Notes under the pieces: model-generated
Seen by the model: the letters and a program-made list of their open reading frames with translations, nothing else
Database searches by the model: none
Told to the model about the DNA's origin: nothing
Shown here: one piece after another, positions 38,440-39,942 of the stretch
Layout of the letters: each line of letters opens with the position of its first letter
How positions within the stretch are numbered: position 1 is the first letter of the stretch
NCBI RefSeq assembly: GCF_011045215.1
Contig: NZ_CP049201.1
DNA length: 64,000 nucleotides
Source: Escherichia coli
Lineage (GTDB): Bacteria; Pseudomonadota; Gammaproteobacteria; Enterobacterales; Enterobacteriaceae
Reading direction: 5' to 3' (one strand)
Made by a program: the position numbers and the translations under genes

Positions 38440-39315
38440 ATGAACATTCTGCCCGTTGTGTCCACCAAAGGTGGCGAAGGAAAATCAACCCAGTCTGCTA
38501 ACCTTGCCGGTTTTCTGGCGGATGCCGGCCTCCGTACCCTGCTGATAGACGGAGACCATGCCCAGCCCACGGCAAGCAATATCTTTCCGCTGACGTATGA
38601 AGCGCCGGCCGGTCTTTTTGAATTACTGATGCGCACGGCTGACCTCAGTCATCCCGACAACATCATTTCCCGCACGGCTATCGACGGCCTTGACCTGATA
38701 GTCTCCAATGACCCCCATGAACAACTGAAAACGGCCATGCTTCATGCGCCGGATGGTCGTCTCCGTCTGCGTAATGTGCTCCAGCATCCGCTTTTCCAGA
38801 GCTATGACGTCATTGTGGTGGATTCACAGGGCGCGCGTTCCGTCATGCTGGAAATGATTGTGCTGTCTGCCACGGAGTCTGTGGTGGGGATGGTGAATCC
38901 GGTTCTGCCGGATGTGCGTGAGTTCATTCGCGGCACAGTCAATGTCATGGAAAACCTGTTGCCCTACCGTGAACTGGGTATCCCCCTGCCGAAAGTCCGC
39001 ACCCTGGTTAACTGCATGGATTATACGGCGCTGGCCAGACAAACACTGGCGGAGCTGACCGACATTATTAACTCCGGTCGCTACAGCAAAGTGCTTCCGG
39101 AAGGCGCGGTCACCCTGCTTTCAACACAGATTTATGACCTGAATATTTACAAACAGGGACACGCAGCCGGCCAGCCGGTGCACCGCCTTGAAAAAGCGTC
39201 TGCCCGTCGCAGTGATTCTGCGCTGGTCACCATGCACAGCCTGGCCTGTGAGTTGTTGCCGGAGTGGAGTGAGTTTTTTGATGTACTGCTGGAAAACGGA
39301 GGTGAAAGCCTGTGA
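38440..39315 (+). CDS. parA: ParA/Soj-family partition ATPase
   Basis: Deviant Walker A KGGEGKST near the N-terminus; start set to ATG 38440 (MNILPVVSTKGG) preceded by gagaagga; track ORF starts at 38422. Confidence 0.8.
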   Translation: MNILPVVSTKGGEGKSTQSANLAGFLADAGLRTLLIDGDHAQPTASNIFPLTYEAPAGLFELLMRTADLSHPDNIISRTAIDGLDLIVSNDPHEQLKTAMLHAPDGRLRLRNVLQHPLFQSYDVIVVDSQGARSVMLEMIVLSATESVVGMVNPVLPDVREFIRGTVNVMENLLPYRELGIPLPKVRTLVNCMDYTALARQTLAELTDIINSGRYSKVLPEGAVTLLSTQIYDLNIYKQGHAAGQPVHRLEKASARRSDSALVTMHSLACELLPEWSEFFDVLLENGGESL

Positions 39316-39701
39316 ACAGAAAACTGATATGGCGTGCTGTGGCTTCAGCTTCAGTTTCCTGCCCCGGACACGATGAAGTGCATGTGTTTGTTGAGGCTGC
39401 AGATTACGAAGAAGCGAAAAAACATTTGTATGACCGTCTGGAGGAGGAATGGCAGCTTCCTGTGAGCCACATAACTTTCCACAACGTGTGGAATGAAAAC
39501 GAGCTATGTGAAATGTCTGCAGGTCCGAAGGTGCCTTCAGGCCTTCCCCTGCTTGAGTCGGGTGGGGGAAATGGTGAGGTCTTTTATGACCATAATCCGC
39601 TGCTCCTCATTGCTTCTCAGCGTCTCAGGGCTGTGATTGAAGGGGTGCTGAGTGTCCTGCCAGAGCGTGGTGAACAGGATGAGTGTGGTCGTGGAATTTA
39701 A
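39312..39701 (+). CDS. Hypothetical island protein (129 aa)
   Basis: GTG start overlapping the parA stop, preceded by ggaggtgaaag; no recognisable domain. Confidence 0.45.
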   Translation: MNRKLIWRAVASASVSCPGHDEVHVFVEAADYEEAKKHLYDRLEEEWQLPVSHITFHNVWNENELCEMSAGPKVPSGLPLLESGGGNGEVFYDHNPLLLIASQRLRAVIEGVLSVLPERGEQDECGRGI

Positions 39702-39942
39702 GTCTCTGACAGGTCGCAGCCGGACAGTATGTGTCGGGTGTGGTTATTCCGGTGTTCGGTTTGGTGATGCTGCAGGCCAGGACACCCGGCAGTGGGTGAA
39801 GGTGAATCATGAGAGCGGGCTGGGGCTGTGCTCCGGCTGTGATGCCTTTCTTTTGCAGGAACGCCTGCGTCGTCAGCGGCATGACCCGCTTTTTTCATGT
39901 GGTGTTTCCGGCAAACATCGAAAAACAGAGGGGGCGATATGA
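39679..39942 (+). CDS. Hypothetical small protein with two CxxC pairs (possible zinc ribbon)
   Basis: ORF containing CVGCGYSG and CSGCDAF; start ambiguous (GTG 39652 or ATG 39679). Confidence 0.35.
   Translation: MSVVVEFKSLTGRSRTVCVGCGYSGVRFGDAAGQDTRQWVKVNHESGLGLCSGCDAFLLQERLRRQRHDPLFSCGVSGKHRKTEGAI

What the first reader, a model, noticed from the sequence alone, without database searches (positions are those of the whole stretch)
39312..39942. Two overlapping small ORFs downstream of parA, the second with paired CxxC motifs
The first ORF uses a GTG overlapping the parA stop with a good Shine-Dalgarno, suggesting translational coupling; this is the position where a partner partition protein is normally encoded, yet the recognisable ParB-like gene lies 5 kb away behind the helicase. 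The second ORF (CVGC...CSGC) may be a zinc-ribbon DNA-binding protein. The partition arrangement may be non-canonical.
Basis: inference. Interest (0 to 1): 0.35.

Follow-up and report, generated by a model that had tools for sequence, protein, structure and literature searches.

The report
Split two-domain gene coupled to ICE parA
The two small overlapping genes after parA are real and are the two halves of an uncharacterised protein (a small alpha/beta domain plus a four-cysteine metal-binding domain) that SPI-7-type mobile islands of enterobacteria keep directly behind parA, in the slot where the related element ICEclc carries its cell-division-arrest gene shi.

Summary
The window holds E. 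coli cadBA/cadC, a 49-nt tRNA-Phe attachment remnant, and then an SPI-7-type integrative conjugative element whose first gene is parA.

- **ORF1 (39312-39701):** it starts with a GTG in a GTGA overlap with the parA stop, behind GGAGGTGA.
- **ORF2 (39679/39652-39942):** it carries CVGC...CSGC.
- **Both are conserved genes.** In 14 loci from 9 or more enterobacterial genera, the ORF1 homologue sits directly after parA (A/GTGA overlap in 12 of 14). dN/dS is about 0.23.
- **The two behave as one module.** They occur fused (177-185 aa), separate, in reverse order (Dickeya), or singly.
- **No named family.** Neither domain matches Pfam, NCBIfam, PHROGs or PDB sequences.
- **ORF1 fold.** It models confidently (pLDDT 88). 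Only its first 60 residues or so resemble a known fold, ribosomal protein LX/eL20.
- **Not Shi homologues.** Profile comparison with a Shi-like protein gives 0.2% probability.
- **Gene order.** parA...dnaB-parB is the norm for this element family, not an anomaly.
- **Phage relatives.** Distant ORF1 relatives lie in early operons of transposable phages, without parA.

Function is untested. My best guess, about 0.4, is a ParA-co-expressed accessory factor. A linker-joined ParA-ORF1 structure prediction gave no confident interface.

The parts
38292..38340 (-). 49-nt copy of the 3' end of tRNA-Phe. This is the attachment-site remnant and marks the left edge of the island.
   Evidence: Read directly and compared with the E. 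coli tRNA-Phe sequence from memory. ARAGORN finds no complete tRNA in the window. RefSeq labels the equivalent stretch 'tRNA-OTHER'.
38440..39315 (+). parA, an ICE-type ParA/Soj ATPase with the KGGEGKS Walker A motif. It is the first gene of the island.
   Evidence: Pfam AAA_31 (5e-16) and CbiA. RefSeq calls it 'ParA family protein'. It is 55-65% identical to the ParA proteins of related ICEs and about 41-43% identical to pKLC102 and ICEclc-type ParA.
39298..39305 (+). Shine-Dalgarno-like GGAGGTGA, 6 nt before the ORF1 start codon and inside the 3' end of parA.
   Evidence: A GGAGG/GGGAG-like motif is present at this position in all 14 loci.
39312..39701 (+). ORF1, 129 aa, with a GTG start in a GTGA overlap with the parA stop. 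It is an alpha/beta domain of an unnamed family with the motifs IWRAVA, E-hVFVEA, W, YN-W-E-EL, G-LLESG-G-G-Y and PL-LVAS.
   Evidence: AlphaFold2 gives pLDDT 88.3 and pTM 0.79. dN/dS is 0.23.
39679..39942 (+). ORF2, 87 aa from the ATG used by PGAP (or 96 aa from the GTG at 39652). It is in the +1 frame relative to ORF1 and overlaps it. It is a four-cysteine metal-binding domain followed by a basic tail.
   Evidence: dN/dS is 0.22-0.27.
39730..39741 (+). First CxxC pair (CVGC).
   Evidence: Invariant in alignment A5.
39829..39840 (+). Second CxxC pair (CSGC).
   Evidence: Invariant in alignment A5.
40017..40445 (-). Convergent 142-aa ORF that closes off the parA-ORF1-ORF2 unit in this island.
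   Evidence: It is annotated as a hypothetical protein in two related islands.
40411..40633 (+). Copy 1 of a 223-nt repeat. It is accessory DNA lying between ORF2 and dnaB.
41414..41636 (+). Copy 2 of the 223-nt repeat.
42530..42752 (+). Copy 3 of the 223-nt repeat, directly upstream of dnaB.
   Evidence: It is conserved upstream of dnaB in Salmonella (L003) and Edwardsiella (L016).
42761..44128 (+). dnaB-PI, the replicative helicase of SPI-7-type islands.
   Evidence: Pfam DnaB_C 7e-92 and DnaB 6e-33. RefSeq name.
44125..45804 (+). parB of the ICE PFGI-1 class, overlapping the dnaB stop.
   Evidence: TIGR03764 at 1.2e-113, 379 bits.

Best explanation
**Shown.** ORF1 and ORF2 are real genes. 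They are the two halves of a bipartite accessory module of SPI-7-type integrative conjugative elements: a roughly 105-residue alpha/beta domain (ORF1) and a roughly 45-residue four-cysteine metal-binding domain (ORF2).

In this island the two domains are encoded as overlapping +1-frame ORFs. In other islands they form one fused protein, two separate genes, two genes in reverse order, or only one of the two is present. Whichever comes first overlaps the parA stop codon, so the module is transcribed and very probably translated together with the element's ParA ATPase. It lies at the head of the parA ... dnaB-parB maintenance and replication operon, next to the attachment site.

**Inferred.** The module works as a small co-factor of the ICE ParA. 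It fills the same slot as Shi of ICEclc, which acts with ParA to arrest host division in transfer-competent cells, but it has an unrelated fold. The alpha/beta domain would be the partner-binding part, and the cysteine domain an optional second contact to protein or DNA.

My confidence that this is a genuine, conserved, split two-domain module is about 0.9. My confidence in the ParA co-factor mechanism is about 0.4, and that is the figure entered below.
For: **Conserved position**
- The order parA -> ORF1 -> [Cys domain fused, separate or absent] -> dnaB -> parB holds in 14 loci (tblastn; contexts).
- The [A/G]TGA overlap occurs in 12 of 14 loci, TAATG in one, and a 16-nt overlap in one.
- Where ORF1 is missing (E24377A type), the Cys-domain ORF itself overlaps the parA stop as ATGGTAA. 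In Dickeya the Cys-domain ORF overlaps parA by 8 nt and the ORF1 homologue follows it.

**The two domains belong together**
- Natural fusions exist: P0034 (185 aa), P0042 (177 aa) and P0049 (178 aa).

**Insertions spare the parA junction**
- Inserted DNA always lies between the module and dnaB, never between parA and the module. This is seen in the window and in L001, L002, L003, L016, L017 and L023.

**Selection and fold**
- Both ORFs are under purifying selection.
- The ORF1 fold is predicted with confidence.

**Precedent in a related element**
- In ICEclc, shi overlaps parA by 17 bp and acts together with ParA. That paper states that SPI-7 lacks a shi homologue (PMC6812849).
- A Shi-type gene with exactly those overlaps was seen here in a P. 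veronii plasmid.
Against: - No direct evidence links the module to ParA function.
- Every gene in the compact versions of this operon overlaps its neighbour by 4-8 nt, so the overlap by itself shows operon compaction rather than partnership.
- An AlphaFold2 run on ParA joined to ORF1 by a flexible linker, with 13 paired sequences, gave pTM 0.62 and pLDDT 69. By my own estimate, that is roughly what two independently placed domains would give.
- More distant ORF1-family proteins sit in transposable-phage early operons with no parA nearby.
- ICEHin1056, pKLC102 and a S. stutzeri plasmid have a related parA and dnaB but no such module. About 37 of the 58 E. coli genomes that carry the Cys domain lack ORF1. 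The module is therefore dispensable for ParA.
- There is no sequence or fold similarity to Shi.
Confidence: 0.4

Rival explanations
1. The module is a ParA-independent host-directed early protein of mobile elements, for example host takeover, anti-defence or cell-cycle interference. It sits after parA only because that is the first expressed operon of the element.
For: - The ORF1 domain family also occurs in early operons of transposable (Mu-like) phages, between the repressor and the transposase, a region typically holding small host-modulating genes (that characterisation is from my own knowledge).
- The module is dispensable and comes in many variants: fused, split, permuted or single.
- No ParA interface was predicted.
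- The Cys domain also occurs alone, or with other N- or C-terminal extensions.
Against: - Within ICEs the module has been found only in the parA-dnaB interval, and always directly joined to parA.
Confidence: 0.3
2. The module is a helper, loader or regulator for the island's own DnaB helicase. Zinc-binding domains are common in helicase partners such as DnaI and primases (from my own knowledge).
For: - In compact ICEs the module's stop overlaps or abuts the dnaB start (L009, L024 and L026 overlap by 4-8 nt; L007 has a 10-nt gap).
- ICEclc-type elements have neither dnaB nor this module.
Against: - The link to dnaB is often broken by 0.2-2.8 kb of inserted DNA, including in this window.
- dnaB-bearing relatives without the module exist.
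- There is no Pfam match to DnaC, DciA or primase zinc domains above noise.
- The phage relatives are not next to a helicase.
Confidence: 0.15
3. ORF2, or ORF1 plus ORF2, is the true centromere-binding partner of ParA, a small DNA-binding adaptor that replaces ParB.
For: - The position after parA matches ordinary parAB operons.
- The cysteine domain has a basic tail (QERLRRQRHD...KHRKTEG).
- Three 223-nt repeats lie 0.5-2.8 kb downstream.
Against: - A full-length ICE-class ParB is present and conserved.
- No HTH or ribbon-helix-helix family or fold was found.
- There are no short iterated repeats around parA.
- The Cys domain is absent from many islands that keep parA and parB.
- The basic tail is not conserved in the older forms of the domain.
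Confidence: 0.07
4. The split is a decaying remnant. A frameshifted pseudogene of the fused gene leaves ORF1 and/or ORF2 non-functional in this island.
For: - The split allele is rare. It occurs in 2 of 5,426 complete E. coli genomes, against 19 with the fused gene.
- Frameshifted and truncated variants of the fused gene exist (P0038, P0026).
Against: - The split allele differs from the fused one by a 55-nt longer linker, not by a single-base frameshift. Both ORFs keep start codons with upstream purine-rich motifs.
- The same linker and N-terminus (FKSLTGRSRTVCVGC) is used by the common ORF2-only allele.
- Separate genes for the two domains are the norm in Salmonella, Erwinia psidii and Dickeya.
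- dN/dS is about 0.2-0.27 for both parts.
Confidence: 0.08

Closest known systems
Shi of ICEclc, the parA-shi growth-arrest pair (Takano et al. 2019, PMC6812849)
   Same: - Both are small ORFs immediately downstream of the ICE-type parA and overlapping its end.
- Both lie at the attachment-site end of an element of the same superfamily, in the same operon as the ICE-class parB.
- Both are hypothetical proteins specific to these elements.
   Different: - There is no sequence or profile similarity: hhalign gives 0.2% probability against a Shi-type, HicA-family protein.
- No HicA_toxin Pfam hit was found in 55 family members.
- The fold is different.
- The module has two domains, 129 + 87 aa or about 180 aa when fused, against 85 aa for Shi.
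- It is followed by dnaB rather than directly by parB.
- Its function is untested.
parA-dnaB-parB maintenance/replication module of ICEHin1056, SPI-7, PAPI-1 and pKLC102 islands (Juhas et al. 2013, PMC3739013)
   Same: The gene order and families agree: parA, dnaB-PI, TIGR03764 ParB, DUF2786, DUF2857 and an STY4528-family protein, with integration at tRNA-Phe.
   Different: - ICEHin1056 has no gene between parA and dnaB.
- pKLC102 has seven other genes there.
- The ORF1/Cys-domain module was found only in the enterobacterial elements surveyed here.
Ribosomal protein LX/eL20 fold (also PaaB and PurS, and more weakly T7 Gp2 and the RNA polymerase epsilon subunit YkzG)
   Different: - Sequence identity is only 8-21%, and the Foldseek E-values (0.03 or higher) are not significant.
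- The conserved C-terminal half of ORF1 (LLESG-G-G-Y, PL-LVAS and the final helix) has no counterpart.
- No functional inference is justified.
Zinc-ribbon type CxxC...CxxC domains
   Same: There are two invariant CxxC pairs about 30 residues apart (C18/C21 and C51/C54) in a domain of about 45 residues.
   Different: - No Pfam zinc-ribbon family matches.
- Older forms of the domain carry seven cysteines (C-x2-C-x-C-x5-C-x7-C...C-x2-C). These could bind a second metal or an iron-sulfur cluster. The best PDB sequence hits are insignificant ones to Bfd ferredoxin (E 0.12-0.3).
- The three-dimensional fold and the metal were not determined here.

Membership tests
Shi (ICEclc ParA partner, HicA-like) | A small ORF directly after the ICE parA, overlapping its 3' end. 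| tested here: met
   GTGA overlap in the window. The same kind of overlap is seen in 14 of 14 related loci. In ICEclc the overlap is 17 bp.
Shi (ICEclc ParA partner, HicA-like) | Sequence or profile homology to Shi or HicA. | tested here: not met
   hhalign of the ORF1 and Cys-domain profiles against the Shi-type protein of a P. veronii ICEclc-like module gives probability 0.2%. None of 55 family members has a HicA_toxin hit at E<=1.
Shi (ICEclc ParA partner, HicA-like) | A HicA-like (double-stranded-RNA-binding-like) fold. | tested here: not met
Shi (ICEclc ParA partner, HicA-like) | Interacts with ParA and causes ParA-dependent growth arrest. | tested here: inconclusive
   Only a linker-joined AlphaFold2 run was possible (pTM 0.62). 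An experiment is needed.
ParB or other centromere-binding partner of ParA (HTH ParB, ribbon-helix-helix ParG/omega type) | An HTH or ribbon-helix-helix DNA-binding domain. | tested here: not met
   No Pfam or NCBIfam hits. The ORF1 model is beta-beta-alpha-beta plus a second alpha/beta subdomain. ORF2 is a Cys4 domain.
ParB or other centromere-binding partner of ParA (HTH ParB, ribbon-helix-helix ParG/omega type) | Cognate iterated centromere repeats next to the operon. | tested here: inconclusive
   There are no short iterons near parA. The three 223-nt repeats between ORF2 and dnaB look like a structured element, not iterons.
SPI-7 / PFGI-1-class ICE maintenance module | parA, dnaB-PI, TIGR03764 ParB, DUF2786, DUF2857 and an STY4528-family protein, in that order, next to a tRNA attachment site. 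| tested here: met
   The ParB scores 379 bits against a cut-off of 143.75.
Zinc ribbon | Two CxxC knuckles conserved across homologues. | tested here: met
   C4, C7, C37 and C40 of alignment A5 are invariant across sequences 29-79% identical to ORF2. 88 homologues were found.
Zinc ribbon | The four cysteines cluster around one metal in three dimensions, and zinc is bound. | not tested
Metal content needs an experiment.
Helicase loaders (DnaC/DnaI AAA+, DciA) | An AAA+ or DciA (DUF721) domain. | tested here: not met

The most novel reading that the evidence does not exclude
The ORF1 plus Cys-domain module is a non-homologous replacement for Shi. Together with the island's ParA it would halt host growth or division, or otherwise reprogram the host cell, when an SPI-7-type element becomes transfer-competent. 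Its relatives in transposable phages would carry out a related host cell-cycle manipulation early in infection. That would define a new protein family for cell-cycle control shared by ICEs and phages.
Probability: 0.15. Interest if true: 0.65.

Novelty: new variant of a known kind. Interest (0 to 1): 0.4.

Why it matters
SPI-7-type islands spread virulence and fitness genes among Salmonella, E. coli, Klebsiella and plant pathogens. How they are maintained and how they handle the host cell during transfer is known mainly from the distant model ICEclc.

The ICEclc work states that SPI-7 lacks the ParA partner Shi. This analysis shows that the enterobacterial elements carry a different, conserved, unnamed two-domain module in exactly that slot.

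That gives a direct experiment: does parA plus this module arrest growth or stabilise the excised element? It also adds two domain families to the catalogue, both missing from Pfam, NCBIfam and PHROGs. In addition, it exposes an annotation gap, because RefSeq omits the N-terminal domain of the fused gene in the complete genome examined, and the same appears to hold in the other 18 fusion-type genomes.

Tried and rejected
**Searches and tests that found nothing useful**
- Pfam, NCBIfam, PHROGs and PDB sequence searches on both ORFs, on the fused proteins and on 55 family members gave nothing above noise.
- A HicA/Shi relationship is rejected.
- AlphaFold2 on ParA-(GGGGS)6-ORF1 with a 13-row paired alignment gave pLDDT 69 and pTM 0.62, and the second half of ORF1 lost confidence. 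It is uninformative about an interface.
- A search for centromere-like short repeats around parA found none. The promoter and terminator scan was uninformative: 0 promoters against 3.3 expected, and one weak terminator-like hairpin inside ORF2.
- Rfam has no match in 37600-48000.

**Collection scans**
- The search for related loci with the broad alignments failed for lack of a conserved stretch. The narrow alignment gave 7 genome loci and none in viral contigs.

**Literature**
- Searches for STY4521-4524 and for PAPI-1 soj neighbours found nothing on these ORFs.

**Ideas considered and set aside**
- A simple one-base frameshift as the origin of the split is rejected, because the alleles differ by a 55-nt linker segment.
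- pKLC102, ICEclc-type and S. stutzeri elements were checked for the module and lack it.
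Full report
**Setting.** The window carries E. coli cadA, cadB and cadC on the minus strand (32210-37675). A 49-nt copy of the 3' end of tRNA-Phe follows at 38292-38340 on the minus strand. ARAGORN finds no complete tRNA, and RefSeq labels the equivalent stretch 'tRNA-OTHER'. From about 38341 onward the sequence is a mobile island.

RefSeq annotation of the near-identical island in strain F2_407_2_2 reads ParA, three hypotheticals and more, 'SPI-7-type island replicative DNA helicase' (dnaB-PI), ParB, DUF2786, DUF2857, a ParE-like protein and an STY4528-family replication protein. My own scans agree. ParA matches AAA_31/CbiA and DnaB matches DnaB_C at 7e-92. ParB matches TIGR03764, the ICE PFGI-1-class ParB model, at 379 bits against a cut-off of 143.75. 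This is therefore an integrative conjugative element of the SPI-7/ICEHin1056/pKLC102/ICEclc superfamily, with parA as the first gene next to the attachment site.

parA ends ...GGAGGTGAAAGCCTGTGA. ORF1 starts with GTG at 39312, so the GTG and the TGA stop share GTGA, and GGAGGTGA lies 6 nt upstream. ORF1 is 129 aa (39312-39701). It is in the +1 frame and overlaps ORF1 by 50 or 23 nt. CVGC is at 39730-39741 and CSGC at 39829-39840.

**ORF1 is a conserved gene tied to parA.**
- A word-indexed search found homologues in E. coli, Salmonella and Klebsiella at 54-98% identity.
- An exhaustive HMMER search of 1.84 billion representative proteins, using a profile covering both domains, found 71 proteins at E<=1e-3. 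Most are 120-160 aa and share a core of about 105 residues (alignment A4).
- I fetched genomic contexts and scanned one genome per species (Edwardsiella, Mixta, two Serratia, Brenneria, two Erwinia). tblastn then showed the same order in every ICE locus: parA, ORF1 homologue, dnaB, parB.
- The ORF1 start overlaps the parA stop as ATGA or GTGA in 12 of 14 loci, as TAATG in one, and by 16 nt in one. A GGAGG-like motif lies upstream in all of them. ParA identity to the window across these loci is only 55-65%.
- dN/dS between the window ORF1 and the 78%-identical E. coli allele is 0.23, against 0.11 for ParA.

**ORF2 is the second domain of the same protein.** Several homologues hit both ORFs. P0034 (185 aa, 290 member sequences) reads ORF1...LIVLQKW-TVCVGCGYSG...ORF2 in one frame. 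The same fusion is found in two more distant elements, 177 aa in L007 and 178 aa in L009, again directly after parA and directly before dnaB.

The other arrangements found were:

| Arrangement | Where seen |
|---|---|
| Two separate genes | Salmonella L024/L025 (126 aa, then 70 aa after a 24-nt gap); Erwinia psidii L022 |
| Reverse order: parA, Cys domain, ORF1 homologue, dnaB | Dickeya oryzae |
| ORF1 only | Klebsiella, Serratia, Mixta, Edwardsiella, Brenneria, Erwinia oleae, some Salmonella |
| Cys domain only, its ATG overlapping the parA stop (ATGGTAA) | E. coli E24377A |

Fusion, fission, permutation and strict neighbourhood together are strong evidence that the two parts work as one module.

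Among 5,426 complete E. coli genomes, 58 carry the Cys domain and 21 carry ORF1. Two of those 21 have the window's split allele at 99% identity or more, and 19 have the fused allele at about 78%. The split and fused alleles differ by a 55-nt longer linker in the split form, not by a single-base frameshift. The split allele shares its linker (FKSLTGRSRTVCVGC) with the common Cys-only allele.

**What the domains are.** Neither domain matches any Pfam, NCBIfam or PHROGs family or any PDB sequence.

The Cys domain has invariant C-x2-C ... W-x2-V-N ... G-x-G-x-C-S-x-C. Older forms have seven cysteines (C-x-G-C-G-C-T-D-x2-A-C ... P-C-H-W ... C-S-x-C), and the E. coli form keeps four. Eighty-eight homologues were found. 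Many are 64-98-aa stand-alone proteins in Salmonella, Klebsiella, Serratia, Pectobacterium and Dickeya, and some have other extensions. I did not model its structure. The metal, zinc or possibly an iron-sulfur cluster in the seven-cysteine forms, is unknown.

**Comparison with Shi.** In ICEclc, shi (258 bp) overlaps parA by 17 bp and parB by 8 bp. ParA and Shi interact and together arrest cell division in transfer-competent cells. The authors describe Shi as HicA-like and state that SPI-7 and ICEHin1056 lack a shi homologue (PMC6812849).

I found an ICEclc-type module on a P. veronii plasmid: alpA, parA, a 78-aa 'HicA family toxin' with exactly the 17-nt and 8-nt overlaps, then parB. Profile comparison of that protein with the ORF1 and Cys-domain alignments gives 0.2% probability. 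No family member hits HicA_toxin, and no HicA appears among the structural neighbours. The window's module therefore occupies Shi's slot but is unrelated to it.

The slot is variable across the superfamily:
- ICEHin1056 has nothing there (PMC3739013).
- A S. stutzeri plasmid has a 370-nt gap with no annotated gene.
- pKLC102 has seven other genes.
- ICEclc-type elements have shi.
- The enterobacterial elements have this module. A profile search of all fetched loci confirms that it is absent from the first four.

**The partition arrangement.** parA ... dnaB-parB is the documented layout of this family. It is unusual only when compared with plasmid parAB operons. In the window the distance is stretched by about 2.8 kb of accessory DNA between ORF2 and dnaB.

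**Mechanism.** The following points are shown:
- The module is co-oriented with parA and start/stop-coupled to it.
- Insertions always fall on its dnaB side.
- It is under purifying selection.
- It is dispensable in some lineages.

What is inferred is that it acts with ParA, as Shi does. Four points weigh against that inference:
- All genes in the compact operons overlap, so the overlap is not specific evidence of partnership.
- The linker-joined ParA-ORF1 prediction gave pTM 0.62 and pLDDT 69, which I estimate is about what two independently placed domains would give. The shallow alignment also degraded the ORF1 part.
- More distant ORF1-family proteins lie in early operons of transposable phages: repressor, small ORFs including the homologue, phrog_1748, transposase phrog_310 and transposition protein phrog_296. 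No parA is nearby.
- The module is absent from several relatives that keep parA.

I therefore put the ParA co-factor reading at about 0.4, a ParA-independent host-directed early function at about 0.3, a DnaB-linked role at about 0.15, and the centromere-binder and pseudogene readings below 0.1 each.

**Verdict.** It is a conserved, unnamed, two-domain module, split in this island. The 'non-canonical' partition layout, however, is the family norm. It is a new variant within a known kind of system: small parA-coupled accessory genes of ICEclc/SPI-7-type elements. Interest is moderate, at 0.4.

Noticed in passing
window 40411-40633, 41414-41636, 42530-42752: A 223-nt direct repeat occurs in three copies (75-88% identical to the reference copy), spaced about 1 kb apart. 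Each copy lies just upstream of a plus-strand ORF: the 171-aa ORF, the 245-aa ORF and dnaB. Copies 1 and 3 also contain the start codon of a minus-strand ORF, and copy 2 lies 65 nt beyond one. The core is conserved upstream of dnaB in Salmonella (L003 8509-8659) and Edwardsiella (L016 4903-5079). RNAalifold predicts a roughly 19-bp hairpin with compensatory changes, then two short hairpins and a T-run. The G-U pairs favour the plus strand. There is no Rfam match. The core occurs at 188 places in 113 of 5,426 E. coli genomes (up to 6 per genome), mostly unannotated in the rows listed, and in no plasmid. It could be a leader, a small RNA, a cassette-recombination site or a ParB site.
   Followed up: partly
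L023 3496-4053 (E. coli S19-141, NZ_CP075640.1): The 185-aa fused ORF1::Cys-domain gene is intact and starts with a GTG that overlaps parA. RefSeq annotates only its last 69 codons (3844-4053) and leaves the ORF1 domain unannotated. The other 18 fusion-type complete genomes appear to be the same, because the ORF1 match there lists only 'ParA family protein' underneath it.
   Followed up: yes
L013 4765-5229, L028 208-585, L012 3935-4393: Distant members of the ORF1 domain family (E 1e-9 to 1e-6 in the exhaustive search) lie in early operons of Mu-like transposable phages, between the repressor and the transposase (L013, L028), or in an endolysin-bearing phage fragment (L012). None has parA nearby.
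   Followed up: partly
L026 4001-4671 (Dickeya oryzae): The domain order is reversed. parA is followed by the Cys-domain gene (87 aa, overlapping parA by 8 nt), then by the ORF1-family gene, then by dnaB.
   Followed up: yes
window 39693-39702: ORF1 ends GGA ATT TAA G, and ORF2 reads GAA TTT AAG in the +1 frame. A +1 slip at the stop codon would recreate the natural fusion (...GRGI-FKSLTGRSRTVCVGC). The tRNA re-pairing looks poor and there is no strong upstream Shine-Dalgarno stimulator, so this is only a low-probability idea (read directly).
   Followed up: no
window 38440-39701 compared with L023: Synonymous divergence between the window and the fusion-type island jumps from 0.26 in parA to 0.71 in ORF1. 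The E24377A allele diverges from the window exactly after GAAAACGGAGG, at the 3' end of parA. Together these point to a recombination breakpoint at the parA 3' end and a cassette-like exchange of what follows.
   Followed up: partly
window 38419-38445 vs 40647-40673, and 39298-39313 vs 41664-41679: The ribosome-binding and start regions of parA and ORF1 resemble those of the 171-aa and 245-aa accessory ORFs. TAAATGAGAAGGA...ATGAAC matches at 78%, and GGAGGTGAAAG..TGT matches at 88%. This may be chance, or it may be reuse of translation-initiation modules.
   Followed up: no
P0111 (Salmonella, 74 aa) compared with the DnaB of L003: The first 19 residues of this stand-alone Cys-domain protein (MSQKSVSTATMLFNVGGEA) closely resemble the N-terminus of the island's DnaB (MSQKPVSPESMLFNVGAET). 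This suggests the Cys-domain gene was inserted together with a duplicated copy of the dnaB start.
   Followed up: no
window 40017-40445, 40996-41349, 42334-42564 (minus strand): Three minus-strand ORFs are interleaved with the repeats. The first and third share an N-terminus (MNT..QLPSGI) because their 5' ends lie inside the repeat. A relative of the second (motif CKTFFDQGT) is seen on the minus strand of the Salmonella locus L003 at 8261-8521. None has a family match.
   Followed up: no
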